The notes: a model not told the origin generated them from the letters alone. DNA of 64,000 bases from Prevotella sp. (GCA_016287755.1 JAEEWT010000013.1:48177-112176); one strand, 5' to 3'. Numbered from the stretch's first letter, positions 7,455 to 60,601 are shown. Translations and numbers: made by a program.

Positions 7455-7539
7455 AGTTATAAGCCTAGTTAGTGGTAGTTATAAGGCTGATAAGTGGGTG
7501 AAACCAGGCTGATAAGTGGTAGAAACTAGCCTTATAACT
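7455..7539. repeat. 85-bp MITE-like element with terminal inverted repeats
   Basis: AGTTATAAGCCTAGTT ... AACTAGCCTTATAACT (15/16 inverted match), internal AGGCTGATAAGTGG twice; related copy at 49383-49460. Confidence 0.65.
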
Positions 7540-7572: not shown

Positions 7573-7699
7573 TGTAGGGGATGTAGGAGATGTAGGGGAT
7601 GTTTTTATAACATTATAGAAAACTATATATAATAGGCTCGCGCGCCCGAAAATTTATAAAGTTTAGAAAACATCTCCTACATCCCCTACATCTCCTACA
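7573..7699. repeat. 127-bp inverted repeat built from GATGTAGG(A/G) nonamers
   Basis: Arms 7573-7605 and 7667-7699 match 30/33 in inverted orientation around an AT-rich spacer containing GGCTCGCGCGCCCG. Confidence 0.8.
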
Positions 7700-13198: not shown

Positions 13199-15055
13199 AT
13201 GAAACATTTCCACCCACTTCAAACCGACATTGCACGACCAAAGCAGTTCAATGATCCGTTTGATTACGAGCCACACCCGCTGAGTATCTTAGCGGTAGAA
13301 GAGGTGCAGCAGTATATCATGGAGCACCCTGAGATTAAGGAGGATGCTGATCAAGGGAAGATGTTTGGGGTGTTGGTTGTTTCTCTTCCGAGGAAGGACG
13401 AAGGAGAAAGGAGGAAGGAGATTTCTTCTGAGATACAGAATGAGGGTGCGGGAATTGGATTCTTGGCGGCGTATAGCGGATTGCTGGCTGGCAGGAACGA
13501 CTGGGAGTGGTTTGTGCCACCCGTGTTCGATGCGCAGGATCCTGATGGGTACTTCAAGGTGCATGAGCAGAAGATAACCGAGATGAACCACGAAGTGGAG
13601 TTGTTAGAAAAGGATTTGGATCATCTCTATCACCAGTCCGACTACCTGAAGATGCTTCGTACCACGGAGAACCTGCTCAGTGAACACGAGAAGAAGATGA
13701 AGACCGCTAAGGTGCTGCGCGACATGAAGCGTCTGCAACGCAACATCTCCCCTGAAGAGAATGCGGAGCTAATCCGAGAGAGTCAGTTCATGAAGGCCGA
13801 GATGCGGCGCATCAAGAAGCGCTGTGAGGAACTGGAGAAGCCGTGGAAGGAAAAGGAGCAATCACTGACAGACAGAATTGAACAACTGAAGAAACAACGC
13901 AAGGAGGCATCTGACGACCTACAGCGCTGGCTGTTCTCACAATACAAGATGAGGAACGCGCAGGGTGAGACCAAAGACCTCATCGAGATCTTCAACGACT
14001 ATAACGGTCAGCTACCCCCAGCGGGGTCGGGTGACTGCTGTGCACCGAAACTCCTGCAGTATGCTTTTGAGAACAACCTCCAACCCCTTTGCATGGCCGA
14101 ATTCTGGTGGGGCGCATCGCCCAAGATGGAGATCCGTCATCACCTGAACTATTATCCCGCCTGCAGAGGGAAGTGCCTCCCGATTTTGGGGTGGATGTTA
14201 TCGAGGAGGAAGGACGAAGGAGGAAGGACGAAGGAGATTACTTCTGAGATACAGGATTCGAAGGATTCAGCACAAGACTCATATACACAGGACATTTCTC
14301 CTTCCTCCCTCCTCCTTCCTCCTTCCTCGAAAAATATCCTCTTCGAAGACTCCCACCTCCTCGTGCTGAACAAACCCGCTGGGATGCTGAGTGTGCCGGG
14401 GAAGACTGGGGATGTGAGTGTGGAGAGCATGATGAGGGATTATCTGCATGATGATATGAATCCTATCATCGTGCACCGACTCGATATGGATACCTCAGGA
14501 CTGATGGTCGTTGCCAAGACTAAATGGACTTACACGGAGCTGCAAAAGCAGTTCCTGGAGCATCAGGTAGAGAAAACATACGTGGCTCTATTAGAGCACA
14601 TGCCCGAGGGAAAACCGCTCAAAGGCACCATCTCCCTACCCCTCCGACCGGATATTTATGACCGTCCGCGACAGCTGGTGGATTGGGAGAATGGGAAGGA
14701 GGCGATCACAGAATATTGGATTTCGAGGAAGGACGAAGGAGGAGGGAGGAAGGAGATTACTTCTGAGATACAGGATACAAAGGAGTCTGTTCAGGACACA
14801 GGCACCCAGTACATTTCTCCTTCCTCCTTCGTCCTTCCTCCTTCCTCGATAAGAATAACCCTCCGTCCCCGCACAGGGCGGACCCACCAACTGCGCGTGC
14901 ACTGCGCCCACCAGGAAGGATTGGGGGTGCCGATTGTGGGAGATGCGCTGTATGGACATCGGGCCGACCGCCTTTATCTGCATGCCGAAACACTGTCGTT
15001 CATTCATCCTAAGACGGGTGAACGACTCACCTTCACGGCACCCGCACCATTCTAA
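13199..15055 (+). CDS. rluA: RluA family pseudouridine synthase with long N-terminal domain, carrying three in-frame repeat insertions
   Basis: Start refined to ATG 13199 (MKHFHPL). Motifs GKMFGVLVV, AGSGDCCAPKLLQYA, NKPAGMLSVPG, VHRLDMDTSG, TGRTHQLRVH, RLYLHA. Confidence 0.93.
   Translation: MKHFHPLQTDIARPKQFNDPFDYEPHPLSILAVEEVQQYIMEHPEIKEDADQGKMFGVLVVSLPRKDEGERRKEISSEIQNEGAGIGFLAAYSGLLAGRNDWEWFVPPVFDAQDPDGYFKVHEQKITEMNHEVELLEKDLDHLYHQSDYLKMLRTTENLLSEHEKKMKTAKVLRDMKRLQRNISPEENAELIRESQFMKAEMRRIKKRCEELEKPWKEKEQSLTDRIEQLKKQRKEASDDLQRWLFSQYKMRNAQGETKDLIEIFNDYNGQLPPAGSGDCCAPKLLQYAFENNLQPLCMAEFWWGASPKMEIRHHLNYYPACRGKCLPILGWMLSRRKDEGGRTKEITSEIQDSKDSAQDSYTQDISPSSLLLPPSSKNILFEDSHLLVLNKPAGMLSVPGKTGDVSVESMMRDYLHDDMNPIIVHRLDMDTSGLMVVAKTKWTYTELQKQFLEHQVEKTYVALLEHMPEGKPLKGTISLPLRPDIYDRPRQLVDWENGKEAITEYWISRKDEGGGRKEITSEIQDTKESVQDTGTQYISPSSFVLPPSSIRITLRPRTGRTHQLRVHCAHQEGLGVPIVGDALYGHRADRLYLHAETLSFIHPKTGERLTFTAPAPF
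13389..13438 (+). repeat. Intragenic palindromic element, left arm plus core (rluA copy 1)
   Basis: CGAGGAAGGACGAAGGAGAAAGGAGGAAGGAGATTTCTTCTGAGATACAG, read in frame as PRKDEGERRKEISSEIQ. Confidence 0.85.
14201..14330 (+). repeat. Intragenic palindromic element, complete 130-bp copy (rluA copy 2)
   Basis: TCGAGGAGGAAGGACGAAGG... / ...CCTTCCTCCTTCCTCGA arms with core CTTCTGAGATACAG at 14241; encodes SRRKDEGGRTKEITSEIQ...ISPSSLLLPPSS. Confidence 0.9.
14723..14849 (+). repeat. Intragenic palindromic element, complete 127-bp copy (rluA copy 3)
   Basis: TCGAGGAAGGACGAAGGAGG... / ...CCTTCGTCCTTCCTCCTTCCTCGA with core CTTCTGAGATACAG at 14760; encodes SRKDEGGGRKEITSEIQ...ISPSSFVLPPSS. Confidence 0.9.
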
Positions 15056-35939: not shown

Positions 35940-36560
35940 CTATGCAAAAAGGGCATGCCAATGCAGGAAACGACGCACTCCTTCCTCACCAAATTTGGCC
36001 AGACTGCGTTCCGCCTGTTCCACTGTTTTTTCTATTTCGGGTCGTGTCTTGGAAAAGAACTTATCAGCATAGCATATCAGTTGTTCTTCCAAGGTCTCGG
36101 GCAGGAAGGGCTCATATGTTGTGGAGTGTGGAGTGTGGGGTGTGGAGTGAGAACACTTCTGCGATACACGAGAAATGTTTGTGGAGGGAGGAGGTGGAAT
36201 GGTGATGGGTAGGTGTTGTGATTGGATCTCGGCAACGGTCAGGCCAGCTCCTGTATGACGCTCACAAACCCGTGCATGACGGGGGAAGCCTTCTGCCCGC
36301 ATAATCTCTGCCCCTATCTGTCCGTGACACACATACGGTTCGGTACCGAAACATTCAATGCCAGGTGCATCGCAACGGAAGATGCCGATGTCGTGGAGCA
36401 TTGCTGCCTCCTCCACGAACTGACGGTCGAGGTGCAGTTCCGGATGTGCATCACAAATCTGCAGAGCCTTATCTGCCACTGCCCTGCTATGAACGAGGAG
36501 AATGCGTTTCAGCGCATTCTCCTCGGGATAATACTTATTAATGATACGATTAAAATCCAT
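35940..36560 (-). CDS. HD/HDIG domain metal-dependent phosphohydrolase with in-frame repeat insertion
   Basis: Start refined to ATG 36560. Motifs LVHSRAVA, AMLHDIG, CHGQIGA, ERHTGAG, ICYADKFFSK. Confidence 0.88.
   Translation of the reverse strand: MDFNRIINKYYPEENALKRILLVHSRAVADKALQICDAHPELHLDRQFVEEAAMLHDIGIFRCDAPGIECFGTEPYVCHGQIGAEIMRAEGFPRHARVCERHTGAGLTVAEIQSQHLPITIPPPPSTNISRVSQKCSHSTPHTPHSTTYEPFLPETLEEQLICYADKFFSKTRPEIEKTVEQAERSLAKFGEEGVRRFLHWHALFA
36121..36196. repeat. Intragenic heptamer element in the HD gene
   Basis: (GTGGAGT)n-GAGAACA-CTTCTGCGATACAC-GAGAAATG; core matches the rluA element 12/14. Encodes PPPPSTNISRVSQKCSHSTPHTPHST. Confidence 0.8.
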
Positions 36561-48820: not shown

Positions 48821-49390
48821 ATGACCAACATCGCTATTTTCGTATCAGGCAGCGGCAGTAACTGTGAGAACATCATCAAGTATTTCTCCTCATCTGCCGA
48901 CATCCATGTTTCCCTGGTCATCAGTAACAAGGCTGATGCCTACGCCTTGGTGCGTGCCAAGAAACTGAATGTGCCCAGTGTGGTGATTTCCAAGAAGGAA
49001 TTACAGCAGGAGGAAATCGTGATGCCACTGCTCCAACAGTACGACATCCATTTCATCGTACTGGCAGGTTTCCTGGTGATGATTCCCGATTATTTGATCC
49101 AGACATACGACCGTCGTATGATCAACCTCCACCCTGCCCTGCTTCCCAAGTATGGCGGCAAAGGCATGTGGGGTCATCATGTGCATGAAGCCATCAAGGA
49201 AGCGGGAGAGACCGAGACGGGCATGACCGTTCACTATGTCAGTAACGTATGCGACGGCGGTGAGGTAATAGCGCAGTTCAGCACACCACTTTCTCCTGAC
49301 GATACCGCCGACGATATCGCAGCCAAGGAGCATGAACTGGAGATGAAATACTTCCCCAAAGTCATTGAGGATGTGATCCGAAAGTTATAA
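48821..49390 (+). CDS. purN: Phosphoribosylglycinamide formyltransferase
   Basis: FVSGSGSN, VLAGF, INLHPALLPKYGG, TGMTVHYV. Confidence 0.96.
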   Translation: MTNIAIFVSGSGSNCENIIKYFSSSADIHVSLVISNKADAYALVRAKKLNVPSVVISKKELQQEEIVMPLLQQYDIHFIVLAGFLVMIPDYLIQTYDRRMINLHPALLPKYGGKGMWGHHVHEAIKEAGETETGMTVHYVSNVCDGGEVIAQFSTPLSPDDTADDIAAKEHELEMKYFPKVIEDVIRKL

Positions 49391-49460
49391 GCCTAGTTAC
49401 TACCAGTTATAAGGCTGATTAGTGGTCGTTATAAGGCTGGTTAGGACCACTTATCAGCCT
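49383..49460. repeat. Second copy of the AGTTATAAGGCT repeat family
   Basis: AGTTATAAGCCTAGTTA identical to 7455-7471; CCACTTATCAGCCT is the reverse complement of the internal AGGCTGATAAGTGG of the first copy; overlaps the purN stop. Confidence 0.7.
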
Positions 49461-56518: not shown

Positions 56519-57520
56519 TTACTCTAACAGCTTACGTGCCAACTCCTCTGCCTCCTTCCGTGCCGGCTTCCCTGTGGCGGTCATGGGTAGGTGATCAACG
56601 AAAAGGGTGTGGCGGGGGGACCAGTATGGGGGGAGTGTGGAGTGTGGAATGTGGAATGTGGAGTGAGATATGCTTTTAGTTTGTGAATCCTCATATAGCA
56701 GCACTCCCACCTCTCCGAACTTCTCATCCTTCACCTTGGTCACCATAAACGGAACGGGAATATGGGGTTTCAGTAAACGCTCCAGCTCCTCGATCTGAAT
56801 CTTGATGCCTCCGGAGCAAATCACATTGTCTTTTCTGCCTAAGATACGGAAGCAACGACCGTCAGGACCGAACTCAGCAATATCGTTCGTAACAATCATC
56901 TCGTTACATACATGGGGGGCATGGATTACCAGACAGTGTTCATCATTCAGCGACACATCCACGCCATCAAAGGGAACATAGTAACTACTTGCCTCTGCAC
57001 CATTCAGTCGGCGCAGTGCTATATGCGAGAGTGTTTCCGTCATCCCGTACGTACTCCACACGAAATGAGGGAAATCTTTCAACGCCTGTGCCAGGTCATC
57101 ATCAATAGCACCTCCACCAATTATCAAGTGCCTGATATTCATCAGCTTGTCACGTTCTTCTGGTACCTGCAAGGTATTATATACCTGCATGGGAACCATG
57201 GCGGCAAAGTCGATTGGTTGTTCTATGCTGACCAACGGATGTCCGCTGGGCTCCACAGTGATCAGTCTCATCTTACGTTCCAAGGCTCGCACCACCATCA
57301 TCTTCCCCGCAATATAATCGGTAGAAAGACAAAGCAAGGCAGTATCTTCTTCCTTCAGTCCGAGGAAATCGCACGTGATACGGGCAGATGCCAGCATGCG
57401 CCGCTTCTCCACCCACAACGGCTTGGGCTTACCCGTAGAGCCGCTGGTGTGCACAAGGATCTTGTCGCTGGCATCGTTCCACGCAGCAAGAAAACGGTTT
57501 GTAGTTTCGGTTGCTGGCAT
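56519..57520 (-). CDS. menE: o-succinylbenzoate--CoA ligase (short Bacteroidota form)
   Basis: TSGSTGKPK, YGMTET, GRKDNVICSGG, TATGKP; lies near menC and menB. Confidence 0.85.
   Translation of the reverse strand: MPATETTNRFLAAWNDASDKILVHTSGSTGKPKPLWVEKRRMLASARITCDFLGLKEEDTALLCLSTDYIAGKMMVVRALERKMRLITVEPSGHPLVSIEQPIDFAAMVPMQVYNTLQVPEERDKLMNIRHLIIGGGAIDDDLAQALKDFPHFVWSTYGMTETLSHIALRRLNGAEASSYYVPFDGVDVSLNDEHCLVIHAPHVCNEMIVTNDIAEFGPDGRCFRILGRKDNVICSGGIKIQIEELERLLKPHIPVPFMVTKVKDEKFGEVGVLLYEDSQTKSISHSTFHIPHSTLPPYWSPRHTLFVDHLPMTATGKPARKEAEELARKLLE
56632..56673. repeat. Intragenic heptamer tract in menE
   Basis: GGAGTGTGGAGTGTGGAATGTGGAATGTGGAGTGAGATATGC; encodes ISHSTFHIPHSTL. Confidence 0.75.
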
Positions 57521-58441: not shown

Positions 58442-58544
58442 TGTGAAAAATGTTGGGTGCAAAATTAAAAAATAATTATGATATGACCAAGTTTATGAAA
58501 CACTTAGCGAGCAAAAAAGAATTGTTTTTTCCCAACATATCCCG

Positions 58545-58895
58545 TAAAGCATATCCTTTCTTTGCAAAGTATTTGTAAATCAAACACTTCAGTAACGGTA
58601 GATGATTGCTGAACATATCCCGTACATTTCCCGTACATCTAACCCATCATTCACCTGAAAAGTAAAAACAACGGGAGATGTAGGTTAGATGATGGTTAGA
58701 TGTTTGGCCATCATCTAACCCACCTCAAGCCCTTTACACATCGATGTTTCAAGCATTTTGGGTTAGATGTTGGCAAGAAAATGAAAAGAACGTCTCTAAC
58801 TGAGGGAACACGAGGGTGTATTTTCATACATGCATGTGCATAAAAATACCCAGCGTCTTAAACGCTGGGAGAGAAAACGTCAAACGCTGGGAGTG
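58545..58895. repeat. Degenerate repeat-rich intergenic segment
   Basis: ACATATCCCGTA twice, CATCTAACC / GGTTAGATG direct and inverted copies, AAACGCTGGGAG twice; no credible ORF. Confidence 0.55.
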
Positions 58896-58983
58896 AGAAC
58901 GCCATTCACTCCCTCCAAACAGCATGCTCTCTAAATCGCCTATTTTTAGGATGCATAAGTATGCATTTCCATTCTTAGCGAAA

Positions 58984-60063
58984 CTACTCCTGCTTATACC
59001 ACAATTGATCACCTATGATCTCCAACGGCATAGGGATATTGTCGGTGAACAGCTGTCCTGTTCCCAAGCCCTGCGGACGTTGGATGTGCGGACCATAGAG
59101 ATAGGCCGTGAGGTGAGCAATGGCATTCAGACCGACATTGCTCTCCAATGCACTGGTAATCCATGAGCCGATATGACGGTCGTTAGCCAGATCAATCCAC
59201 TCCTTCGTACCCGCCATTCCTCCATGGAGAGAGGGCTTCAGAATGATATAGGCAGGTTTGATGATGTCGAGCAACTGACCTTTCGTATAGGAATCGTTCA
59301 CACCGATGAGTTCCTCGTCGAGGGCGATAGGTATCGGCGACTCCCTGCAAAGGAAAGCCATGTCGCCCCACTGTCCCTGACGAATAGGCTGCTCGATGGA
59401 ATGAATATCATACAACGACAACTGCTCCAGTTTCTGCAAGGCATCATCGGGCGAGAAGGCACCATTCGCATCTACCCGCAGCTCAATCTCCCGCCTACTG
59501 TAACGGCTCCTGATCTTCTTGAGCAACTCCAATTCCTGATTGAAATCGATAGCCCCGATCTTCAGCTTGACACAATGGAAGCCCTGCGCCAACTTCTGTT
59601 CAATACGCTCTCGCATCTCTTCAAAAGTACCCATCCAAACAAGTCCGTTAATGGGAATCCCTTCTTCTCCCCTACCGAAGGGAGTGTCGAAAAGCATCGT
59701 GGAACCAACCTGCAGGTTCAAGAGCGCTGTTTCCAGACCGAAGAGCATGGAGGGGTAGTCTTGTGGAGTGTGGAGTGTGGAGTGTGGAGTGAGAATAGTT
59801 CGAGGAAGGAGGAGGGAGGAAGGAGGAAGGAGATTACCAATAGGATTCTCTGAAACAAAGGATTCGCAGAAAGTAGAGAGTTTTTCTGCATAATTGGGGA
59901 TATCGTCGCACGACAGATTCGGTAGGGGCGCACACTCCCCTATGCCCTGCCTACCGTTCTCATCGGTCAGGGTGATAAACCAGGAACGACGGGTGGTGTA
60001 AGTACCACGGGATGTTCCGGCTGGCTGCTTGAAGTGCAGCACTCGTTCTTGTATTTTATACAT
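58984..60063 (-). CDS. menC: o-succinylbenzoate synthase with in-frame repeat insertion
   Basis: GIGECAPLP, INGLVWMG, KLKIG, RVDANG, EQP, ALDEEL, ILKPSLHGG, SALES. Confidence 0.93.
   Translation of the reverse strand: MYKIQERVLHFKQPAGTSRGTYTTRRSWFITLTDENGRQGIGECAPLPNLSCDDIPNYAEKLSTFCESFVSENPIGNLLPPSSLLLPRTILTPHSTLHTPQDYPSMLFGLETALLNLQVGSTMLFDTPFGRGEEGIPINGLVWMGTFEEMRERIEQKLAQGFHCVKLKIGAIDFNQELELLKKIRSRYSRREIELRVDANGAFSPDDALQKLEQLSLYDIHSIEQPIRQGQWGDMAFLCRESPIPIALDEELIGVNDSYTKGQLLDIIKPAYIILKPSLHGGMAGTKEWIDLANDRHIGSWITSALESNVGLNAIAHLTAYLYGPHIQRPQGLGTGQLFTDNIPMPLEIIGDQLWYKQE
59763..59840. repeat. Intragenic chimeric heptamer element in menC
   Basis: (GTGGAGT)4-GAGAATAGT joined to TCGAGGAAGGAGGAGGGAGGAAGGAGGAAGGAGATTAC, the rluA-type arm; encodes GNLLPPSSLLLPRTILTPHSTLHTPQ. 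Confidence 0.85.
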
Positions 60064-60072
60064 AAGTACAGG

Positions 60073-60601
60073 TTTTTAGACAGAAGAACATATTTTTTAG
60101 ACAAAAGAACAAAAGGACATAATTATTAAAACTCTATGGTTTTCGAAAAACACGGTATTTACGTTTGACTTCAATTTTGGGAGAGCCAAAATTAATTAAT
60201 AGACCATCATCAATGTGCGTGGCTGTCAGATAGTTAACCAACTGAACTTCATGGGCTGCCACCAAATTATTTACGGCTTTCAGTTCAACGATTACTCTTT
60301 CATCTACGATTAAGTCCGCCTTGAATTCTCCCACGATTTCTTCATCGTAATAAACATTCATCGGGCACTCGCTTTCATAGAAAATACCGCGTTTGTCCAA
60401 TTCTATCATGAGTGCATTTTTGTAAACAGATTCCAAAAAGCCTGGTCCCAACTGCATTCTTACATGATACGCACTATCTATGATTGTCTTTATTAACTCT
60501 TCTACATCCATCTCTATCATAAATCCTTATGGCTTATATCTTGAACATTTATTATTATGTCCTTTCGTTCTTCTGTCTAAAAAACATGTCCTTTTGTCTT
60601 A
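60073..60601. mobile_element. Inverted-repeat-bounded GxxExxY cassette (candidate mini-element)
   Basis: 34-bp IRs at 60093-60126 and 60551-60584 (31/34 identical) plus partial outer copies, bracketing a single gene. Confidence 0.55.
60134..60520 (-). CDS. GxxExxY protein (PD-(D/E)XK nuclease fold)
   Basis: 128 aa; LGPGFLESVY, KADLIVDERVIVELKAV, QLVNYL, GLLINFG. Confidence 0.93.
   Translation of the reverse strand: MIEMDVEELIKTIIDSAYHVRMQLGPGFLESVYKNALMIELDKRGIFYESECPMNVYYDEEIVGEFKADLIVDERVIVELKAVNNLVAAHEVQLVNYLTATHIDDGLLINFGSPKIEVKRKYRVFRKP

What the first reader, a model, noticed from the sequence alone, without database searches (positions are those of the whole stretch)
59763..59840. 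Chimeric element in menC joins both heptamer arm types
Seen: a (GTGGAGT)4 array, as in the HD gene and menE, is fused directly to TCGAGGAAGG...AAGGAGATTAC, the rluA left arm. It reads in frame in MenC as GNLLPPSSLLLPRTILTPHSTLHTPQ just before DYPSMLFGLETA. This links the two arm types into one family. Inference: successive insertions at one site, or recombination between copies.
Basis: partly seen in the sequence, partly recalled or inferred. Interest (0 to 1): 0.62.

Follow-up and report, generated by a model that had tools for sequence, protein, structure and literature searches.

The report
Two-arm repeat relic inside menC
A vitamin-K2 synthesis gene of a rumen Prevotella carries, in frame in a floppy surface loop, two different end-pieces of a selfish hairpin repeat family set head to tail, and closely related strains carry one, the other, both or swapped pieces at the same spot.

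Summary
Window 59763-59790 is (GTGGAGT)4. It is followed by GAGAATAGT, then TCGA plus a GAGGAAG-type array (59800-59829), then GAGATTAC. The whole stretch is read in frame on the minus strand as MenC residues about 72-101.

It is not a hairpin. It is two "solo arm" modules in tandem, each an array plus a few bases of element core. They belong to a genome-wide family of about 140 heptamer arms that share a GAGAWWW junction and a roughly 60-nt core. Different arm types pair and nest freely in that family.

An independent metagenome contig carries the same chimera, so it is not an assembly artefact. Alleles 94-96% identical in flanking DNA carry only the ACTCCAC arm, only the CTTCCTC arm, two ACTCCAC arms in the same frame (a swapped arm 1), or a longer composite. 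Lineages at 83% and 77% identity also hold arrays at this site. Distant Prevotella have a plain 18-residue loop.

AlphaFold models the segment as low-confidence coil, and the catalytic residues are intact. The order of events and the enzyme behind them remain unknown. This is a further, informative copy of an RPE-like family that appears undescribed.

The parts
58984..60063 (-). menC (o-succinylbenzoate synthase), 359 aa, intact host gene
   Evidence: ORF. Homologues carry PF21508 and PF13378 and sources name them o-succinylbenzoate synthase. Best solved relative is 2PGE MenC, E 1.3e-93. K166, K168, D198, E224, D249 and K276 are invariant in alignment A1.
59763..59790 (+). Module 2 arm: (GTGGAGT)4, a perfect array. 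On the sense strand it is (ACTCCAC)4 and encodes LTPHSTLHTPQ, about residues 91-101.
   Evidence: The same arm type occurs 57 times in the genome.
59791..59799 (+). Module 2 core-end remnant: GAGAATAGT, the first 9 nt of the canonical core GAGAATAGTACTGAGATAC...
   Evidence: One search shows many copies reading ...GTGGAGTGagaatagtactgagata.... One search gives 97% matches over 38-39 nt that end at this point.
59800..59829 (+). Module 1 arm: TCGA outer end plus a GAGGAAG-type array (GAGGAAG GAGGAGG GAGGAAG GAGGAAG). It encodes LLPPSSLLLPR on the sense strand.
   Evidence: 40 of the 52 arms of this type are exactly 31 nt long.
59830..59848 (+). Module 1 core remnant: GAGATTACCAATAGGATTC, encoding ENPIGN. 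It is absent from the single-arm allele.
   Evidence: The 48-nt indel against L041/L001 is placed at 59801-59848. The nearest genomic match extends through GAGATTtCCAA (C7:23846-23886, 95% over 41 nt).
56630..56664 (+). Related solo arm in menE: a GTGGAGT-type array plus GAGATATGC, read in frame as SHSTFHIPHSTL
   Evidence: The arm is conserved in L041, but the adjoining ~25 nt are replaced by unrelated sequence.
36121..36148 (+). Related solo arm in the HD-domain gene: a GTGGAGT-type array plus GAGAACACTTCTGCGATACA
14201..14330 (+). Full hairpin copy with GAGGAAG arms in rluA, used as the reference for the arm and its junctions
   Evidence: RNA fold -56.6 kcal/mol, z -5.4.
14723..14849 (+). 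Second full hairpin copy in rluA. Its left arm is the closest in-window relative of the menC arm.
   Evidence: RNA fold -71.4 kcal/mol, z -8.1.

Best explanation
The segment is a relic composite of two members of a dispersed, non-coding family of hairpin repeats. A full element has two inverted arms, each of about four heptamers, around a ~60-nt core, with a GAGA junction inside each arm and often TCGA outside it.

In menC only two right-hand half-elements survive, head to tail on the sense strand. Module 1 is core remnant, TAATCTC, the CTTCCTC arm and TCGA. Module 2 is ACTATTCTC followed by the ACTCCAC arm. This layout is what nesting of one element into, or beside, another would leave after in-frame deletion of the rest.

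Both arrays lack stop codons in every frame on both strands. The relic is therefore simply translated, as about 30 extra residues in a disordered loop between two helices of the MenC capping domain, and it is tolerated there.

Shown here: the anatomy, family membership, absence of a fold, the loop location, and the allelic series with gain, loss or swap of whole arm modules in frame. Inferred: that the modules arrived by insertion or nesting rather than by ectopic conversion, that the protein is active, and that the relic has no function of its own. The enzyme that moves or exchanges the arms is unknown.
For: Anatomy and family.
- The genome has 452 period-7 arrays.
- About 140 of them, of types GTGGAGT, GAGGAAG, GCAAGAA and variants, are followed by GAGAWWW.
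- The canonical 60-nt core has 22 copies.
- Arm length is fixed: 40 of 52 GAGGAAG arms are exactly 31 nt. The arms therefore behave as copied units and not as slipping microsatellites.

Nesting is recurrent.
- 12 places have two different arrays no more than 25 nt apart.
- Identical composite junctions recur at C2:17043, C25:225880 and C47:50989, and at C10:142458 and C4:157134.

No hairpin in menC. The RNA fold is -4.7 kcal/mol with z +0.75, against -56.6 and -71.4 kcal/mol (z -5.4 and -8.1) for the full rluA copies.

Real and inherited. L069 from another sample has the same chimera.

Allelic series in one frame, GTTTCAGA..TAATCTC-[arm 1, 26 nt]-TCGA-AsTATTCTC-[arm 2, 28 nt]-AAGACTAC.
- Window: arm 1 CTTCCTC, arm 2 ACTCCAC.
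- L072: arm 1 ACTCCAC, arm 2 ACTCCTC/ACTCCAC.
- L001/L041: a single ACTCCAC arm.
- L005/L007: a single CTTCCTC arm.
- L003: a longer composite.
- L008 (83% identity): both arms, with the outer one 7 residues shorter than in the window.
- A third clade has lengths of 344, 351, 358 and 386 aa, that is steps of 7 aa.

Tolerated location. AlphaFold2 gives pTM 0.83, with residues 73-99 as coil at pLDDT about 48-55 between helices 58-72 and 104-119. The catalytic KxK, D, E, D and K residues are invariant. Most of the 80 distant Prevotella loci carry the plain short loop: 51 have the 34-residue stretch and none shows a heptamer-array peptide.

Arrays are depleted from coding DNA but not excluded: 28% lie in long ORFs against 73% of random windows.
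Against: - No empty site with clean element boundaries or a target-site duplication was recovered, so insertion is inferred and not seen.
- No transposase was linked to the family. Y1/RAYT is absent from the genome.
- The alleles cannot be related by single insertions. The core remnants beside the same arm differ: 19 nt in the window, 10 nt in L001/L072 and about 25 nt in L005.
- Arm 1 differs between the window and L072 while its length (26 nt) and both flanks are the same. This looks more like exchange within a frame than like independent insertion plus trimming.
- The gene tree and the distribution of arm types conflict on polarity (against L008).
- Translation and enzyme activity were not tested.
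Confidence: 0.78

Rival explanations
1. Dedicated cassette exchange. An enzyme-driven or templated process replaces one 26-31-nt heptamer arm by another within a fixed frame (inner GAGA/core end, outer TCGA). On this view the menC site is a standing 'slot' whose content is rewritten, and not a scar of random insertions.
For: - The window and L072 are collinear base for base around arm 1, but arm 1 is CTTCCTC-type in one and ACTCCAC-type in the other, 26 nt in both.
- L001 and L005 carry different arms after the same ..GCTAATCTC remnant.
- Clade C likewise has CATCTCT arrays or a CTTCCTC array at the same site.
- In menE the arm is kept while the adjoining core remnant is replaced.
- Arm length is fixed genome-wide.
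- Unchecked earlier scan notes report similar swapping elsewhere.
Against: - No candidate enzyme was identified.
- The frame sequences are themselves conserved element ends, so independent insertions of differently armed elements would mimic a 'constant frame'.
- Homologous recombination among strains could shuffle old alleles.
- The alleles look stable: the same chimera persists across 4.5% gene divergence.
Confidence: 0.14
2. In-situ microsatellite evolution. The arrays arose and diversified at this site by replication slippage and unit conversion, without any mobile element.
For: - Clade C alleles differ by multiples of 21 nt, and L010 keeps only a ~1.3-unit proto-repeat.
- The two units share 4 of 7 positions (xxTCCxC), and intermediate units such as GAGGAGT occur within arms.
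Against: - The flanks (TCGA, GAGAATAGT, GAGATTAC) and the arm variants match dozens of dispersed copies at 92-97%.
- Arm length is nearly invariant genome-wide.
- Core-derived sequence adjoins the arms.
Confidence: 0.04
3. Contingency (phase-variation) switch. The perfect heptamer array lets menC shift frame by plus or minus one unit and so turn menaquinone synthesis off and on.
For: (GTGGAGT)4 is a perfect array. Seven is not a multiple of three, so a change of one unit would shift the frame.
Against: - All 120 listed homologues and all fetched alleles are in frame.
- Four units is short for frequent slippage.
- Length classes differ by three units.
- The same arms sit in many housekeeping genes and in intergenic DNA.
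- Reads could not be examined.
Confidence: 0.02
4. Selected protein feature. The Pro/Ser/Thr/His-rich insert is an adaptive linker or interaction motif of MenC.
For: The loop is occupied in three species-level clades. Other MenC lineages, including 2PGE, have longer natural inserts at this position.
Against: - The peptide differs completely between close strains (TPHSTLH, LLPPSSL, SHLSSLI, or none in L006).
- It is identical in DNA to non-coding copies.
- It is modelled as disordered.
Confidence: 0.02

Closest known systems
Rickettsia palindromic elements (RPE; Ogata et al. 2000, as summarised in PMC10969869)
   Same: Small non-autonomous palindromic repeats that sit in frame in many unrelated housekeeping genes. 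They are translated as extra peptide in places compatible with the fold. Decayed copies are common.
   Different: - RPEs are ~150 bp with a conserved peptide per family. Here the arms are ~30-nt arrays of heptamers of several interchangeable types around a shared core.
- The peptide depends on arm type and orientation.
- The host is a free-living rumen Bacteroidota.
- Arm modules are gained, lost and swapped between strains at one site.
Cyanobacterial heptamer repeats (STRR) and small dispersed repeats of Nostoc (Elhai et al. 2008, Genome Res 18:1484). Cited from my own knowledge and listed as ref. 43 of PMC3116915; the paper itself was not available.
   Same: Dispersed tandem heptamer arrays. 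Very small mobile hairpin units are found inside such arrays, inside one another and occasionally in genes. No transposase is known.
   Different: A different phylum and different sequences. Here the arrays are of fixed length (~4.3 units) and form the inverted arms of the element, instead of being a substrate into which a 21-27-nt unit inserts.
MITEs of Bacteroidota, e.g. BrickBuilt of Porphyromonas gingivalis (PMC4596501)
   Same: A species-restricted, multi-copy, non-coding element of a Bacteroidota that combines inverted ends with tandem repeats.
   Different: BrickBuilt has an internal 23-nt minisatellite and small terminal inverted repeats, and it is always intergenic. Here the tandem repeats are the inverted arms themselves, and many copies are in frame in genes.
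REP/REPIN elements with RAYT transposases (PMC3116915)
   Same: Short hairpin-forming dispersed repeats that occur as doublets and clusters.
   Different: No Y1/RAYT gene is present in this genome. The arms are heptamer arrays. Copies occur within coding DNA.

Membership tests
Heptamer-armed hairpin family of this genome (GAGA-junction family) | An arm of about four heptamers, followed on the inner side by GAGAWWW and core sequence | tested here: met
   Both menC arrays are followed by GAGAATAGT or GAGATTACC. The same holds for 44/57 and 45/52 arrays of these units.
Heptamer-armed hairpin family of this genome (GAGA-junction family) | Two inverted arms that form a long hairpin around a ~60-nt core | tested here: not met
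   The two menC arrays are of different type and lie in the same sense. The fold is -4.7 kcal/mol with z +0.75. The segment is a relic and not a complete member.
MITE | Terminal inverted repeats and many dispersed copies | tested here: met
   This holds for the family as a whole: searches show 22 or more copies of the core and about 140 arms.
MITE | Target-site duplication and an empty site at orthologous loci | tested here: inconclusive
   No clean empty site was recovered. The 48-nt difference from L001/L041 is bounded by GAGA-type microhomology, and the alleles differ by replacements and not by a simple insertion.
MITE | A related autonomous element or transposase with the same ends | tested here: not met
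   Inverted same-type arrays 150-3000 nt apart enclose ordinary genes or a small S23p-like ORF, and no transposase.
Rickettsia palindromic elements (by analogy) | In-frame insertion in unrelated genes, translated, at sites compatible with the fold | tested here: met
   126 arrays lie inside long ORFs. The menC segment lies in a low-pLDDT loop. Translation itself was not tested.
Rickettsia palindromic elements (by descent) | Sequence homology to RPE families, with Rickettsia as host | tested here: not met
   No Rfam family matches anywhere in the window except one tRNA. The family is found only in rumen Prevotella MAGs.
REP/REPIN-RAYT | A cognate Y1 (RAYT) transposase gene in the genome | tested here: not met
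   PF01797 gives 0 matches in the window's own genome, while the control genomes are positive.
Contingency locus (simple-sequence phase variation) | Alleles that differ by single repeat units and switch the frame | tested here: not met
   All alleles are in frame, and the length steps are 21 nt or whole modules. Within-culture variation could not be tested.
o-Succinylbenzoate synthase (host gene) | Enolase-superfamily catalytic residues (KxK, Asp, Glu, Asp, Lys) and a men-operon context | tested here: met
   K166, K168, D198, E224, D249 and K276 are invariant. menB, menE and menD are neighbours. 2PGE MenC matches at E 1.3e-93.

The most novel reading that the evidence does not exclude
Rumen Prevotella may possess an undescribed process that writes and exchanges ~26-31-nt heptamer-array 'arms' as cassettes within a fixed frame, with TCGA outside and a GAGA-core end inside. 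If earlier scan notes are right, other phyla may have it too. On this reading the menC loop is a long-lived slot whose content is rewritten between strains (CTTCCTC, ACTCCAC, CATCTCT) while the reading frame is kept. The window's chimera and L072 would then be two states of the same two-slot site.
Probability: 0.15. Interest if true: 0.85.

Novelty: new variant of a known kind. Interest (0 to 1): 0.55.

Why it matters
This copy adds something the full hairpin copies in rluA do not show. It gives a natural allelic series at one site of an essential-pathway gene, in which whole arm modules are present, absent, doubled or exchanged among strains only 4-6% apart, always in frame.

That makes the family's dynamics directly testable:
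- insertion against templated exchange against deletion;
- a ready genotyping marker for rumen Prevotella strains;
- a clean case for asking how much disordered, repeat-derived peptide an enolase-superfamily enzyme tolerates.

It also warns annotators that low-complexity PxS/TPH stretches in Prevotella proteins can be translated repeat DNA.

Tried and rejected
- Assembly artefact: rejected. L069 from another sample has the same junctions. The arms (26-31 nt) are much shorter than the assemblers' k-mers.
- Known RNA family: Rfam at gathering threshold finds only one tRNA in the window.
- Plasmid origin: a full rluA copy has no match in PLSDB.
- RAYT or Y1 transposase: absent.
- Autonomous copies: inverted arrays 150-3000 nt apart enclose no transposase.
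- Close GTDB relatives: 24 same-genus representatives lack the arms and the core, and their MenC is at most 69% identical. They gave no empty site. An exact arm-plus-core probe did find five other rumen Prevotella MAGs.
- The metagenome scan with MenC gave only one close allele (L072). The other 79 loci served as outgroups.
- Similarity between the rluA-type core and the menC flank TTCTGAAACAAAGGATTCG was considered as evidence that the flank is element-derived. I left it open, because FCExF is conserved in insert-free orthologues.
- Polarity from a gene tree: support within the close clade is weak (31-81%) and conflicts with L008.
- Elhai et al. 2008 could not be read.

Full report
**Observation.**
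- (GTGGAGT)4 lies at 59763-59790.
- GAGAATAGT lies at 59791-59799.
- TCGA plus the array GAGGAAG GAGGAGG GAGGAAG GAGGAAG lies at 59800-59829.
- GAGATTACC follows.

The minus-strand ORF 58984..60063 reads straight through it as ...FCESFVSENPIGNLLPPSSLLLPRTILTPHSTLHTPQDYPSMLFGLETA.... Both array types are far above chance in the window: 9 matches against 0.02 expected, and 18 against 0.13. The only imprecision is "fused directly": nine bases, GAGAATAGT, separate the arrays, and those bases are informative.

**The family.** The window belongs to a 3.21-Mb, 48-contig genome of a rumen Prevotella, judged by the source names of its closest proteins and by the MAGs that share the element.
- Tandem Repeats Finder reports 452 period-7 arrays. 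The leading units are ACACTCC (57, which is GTGGAGT) and AAGGAGG (52, which is GAGGAAG).
- Full elements read arm(4 heptamers)-GAGAATAGTACTGAGATACAGTATTCATATACAAAACCACTTGTACTTGAAGCATATCTC-inverted arm. The 60-nt core has at least 22 copies.
- About 140 arms of several unit types (GTGGAGT, GAGGAGT, GAGGAAG, GCAAGAA and others) are followed by GAGAWWW. Other heptamer arrays of the genome (AAAGTTC, AAAATTG, AACTGTC and others) are not, and form separate classes.
- Arm length is almost fixed: 40 of 52 GAGGAAG arms are exactly 31 nt. The arms therefore behave as copied units and not as free microsatellites.
- Arm types combine freely. Pairs 51-150 nt apart are heterotypic in 31 cases and homotypic inverted in 25.
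- Layered composites recur with identical junctions at several loci.
- The arms and the core are absent from 24 same-genus species representatives. An exact arm-plus-core probe occurs in five other rumen Prevotella MAGs.
- No Y1/RAYT transposase is present. No transposase lies between distant inverted arms. No Rfam family matches.

**Anatomy of the menC piece.** On the coding strand it reads GAATCCTATTGGTAATCTC-(CTTCCTC CTTCCTC CCTCCTC CTTCC)-TCGA-ACTATTCTC-(ACTCCAC)4-AAGACTAC.
- TAATCTC and ACTATTCTC are the two kinds of inner core end that precede right-hand arms in full copies.
- TCGA is the usual outer end.

The segment is therefore two right-hand half-elements in tandem, and not one element with two arm types. 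Accordingly it has no predicted fold (-4.7 kcal/mol, z +0.75). The full rluA copies fold at -56.6 and -71.4 kcal/mol (z -5.4 and -8.1). The nearest genomic relatives of each half end exactly at the module borders.

**Location in the protein.**
- MenC is otherwise ordinary. It carries PF21508 and PF13378, 2PGE MenC matches at E 1.3e-93, and K166/K168, D198, E224, D249 and K276 are invariant.
- AlphaFold2 (pTM 0.83) models residues 73-99 as coil with pLDDT about 48-55. This coil lies between helix 58-72 and helix 104-119 of the capping domain.
- In most of the 80 more distant Prevotella loci, and in most of the top 120 proteins, the same place is a short loop, CDxFxxxGxIDYDxLRxY.

**Allelic series.** DNA of thirteen further alleles was fetched.

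| Allele | Relation to the window | State at the site |
|---|---|---|
| L069 | clade A, independent sample, gene 95.5% identical | same chimera, two substitutions |
| L001/L002, L041/L042 | clade A | single (ACTCCAC)4 arm; protein 343-346 aa; the commonest type, more than 22 protein clusters |
| L005, L007 | clade A | single CTTCCTC arm |
| L072 | clade A | same two-module frame as the window, but arm 1 is ACTCCAC-type, 26 nt as in the window, between identical TAATCTC and TCGA-AGTATTCTC flanks |
| L003/L004 | clade A | ACTCCAC arm, TCGA-AGTATTCTC, about 70 nt, then a CTTCCTC arm (380 aa) |
| L008 | clade B, 83% identity | CTTCCTC arm followed by a short ACTCCAC remnant; the protein is 7 residues shorter there than the window's |
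| L006 | clade B | no array |
| several (L009, L010, L070, L071) | clade C, 77% identity | CATCTCT-type arrays of varied length, a perfect CTTCCTC array, or a remnant; protein lengths 344, 351, 358 and 386 aa, i.e. 7-aa steps |

Clade A alleles are 92-96% identical to the window in flanking DNA.

**What remains open.**
- The alleles are not related by single clean insertions. The core remnant beside the arm differs (19, 10 or about 25 nt), and arm 1 is exchanged within a constant frame.
- The gene tree puts alleles with only ACTCCAC arms basal and groups all CTTCCTC-bearing alleles together (78% support). L008 in another clade nevertheless has the window's arrangement. Gain by nesting, loss by deletion, allelic recombination and ectopic conversion cannot be ordered.
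- In menE, the arm is conserved between the window and L041, while the adjoining ~25 nt are replaced. This shows the same module-wise turnover.
- Earlier notes of this scan on the rluA and HD copies, and on similar elements elsewhere, agree with this picture. They are unchecked AI notes and are not used as evidence.

**Comparison with known systems.**
- In behaviour the family is closest to the Rickettsia palindromic elements, which also sit in frame and are tolerated in housekeeping genes (PMC10969869).
- In composition it is closest to cyanobacterial heptamer repeats and small dispersed repeats (Elhai 2008, from my own knowledge).
- BrickBuilt of Porphyromonas is another MITE of the same phylum with tandem repeats, but it is intergenic and built differently (PMC4596501).
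- REP/RAYT membership fails on the missing RAYT.
- Two searches found no description of heptamer-armed elements in Prevotella.

**Verdict.** The segment is a translated, non-folding, two-module relic of an RPE-like family that appears undescribed. Its particular value is the strain-level series of arm gain, loss and exchange at one site.

Noticed in passing
window 58480-58979: A ~500-bp block between the menC stop and the cation-efflux gene is absent from L041, L001 and L007, where the intergenic gap is only a few bases to tens of bases. The block contains an 11-mer tandem repeat (58613-58638), inverted repeats (58677-58731, 58814-58851) and a 22-mer tandem repeat (58860-58901).
   Followed up: partly
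window 60064-60601: The PDDEXK_3 (GxxExxY) gene cassette between menB and menC is polymorphic. It is present in L003, L004, L005, L041 and L042. It is absent from L001, L007, L008, L009 and L010, where menB abuts menC. In L041 the cassette region is too diverged for a blastn match at 1e-20. The genome has 6 PDDEXK_3 genes.
   Followed up: partly
window 56665-56697 (menE): Next to the conserved GTGGAGT-type arm in menE, the window reads YEDSQTKSI and the 94%-identical L041 reads ISRTTDSHG. About 25 nt have been replaced by unrelated sequence of nearly equal length. In L041 this sequence resembles a remnant of a different arm type.
   Followed up: partly
genome-wide, e.g. C12:68944-70114, C21:57193-57293: A second class of heptamer arrays (AAAGTTC, 48 copies, about 32 nt) has an inner junction ATGAT/ATCAT instead of GAGA. 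These arrays form their own hairpins. One pair brackets a 119-aa S23p-like four-helix-bundle ORF.
   Followed up: no
genome-wide: About 250 further ~30-nt heptamer arrays (AAAATTG, AACTGTC, AACTATG, AATTATC and others) have neither junction, and many lie singly at gene ends. By one ORF criterion, 28% of all arrays lie inside long ORFs, against 73% of random windows.
   Followed up: no
window 7455-7539, 7573-7699 and 49383-49454: Other repeat-armed structures occur in the window. There is a hairpin with arms of 9-mers (TGTAGGGGA/TGTAGGAGA, 21-nt perfect arms, 76-nt loop), and there are arrays of a 22-mer (AGTTATAAGGCTG...) at two distant places.
   Followed up: no
C10:142458-142528 and C4:157134-157200 of the genome: The same composite junction, GAGGAAG arm-GAGAAATGATTT-GTGGAGT-type arm, occurs at two loci. 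The composite GAGGAAG arm-GAGATATGCTTCAAGG.TAG.-GCAAGAA arm occurs at three loci. Layered elements therefore either spread as units or form repeatedly.
   Followed up: partly
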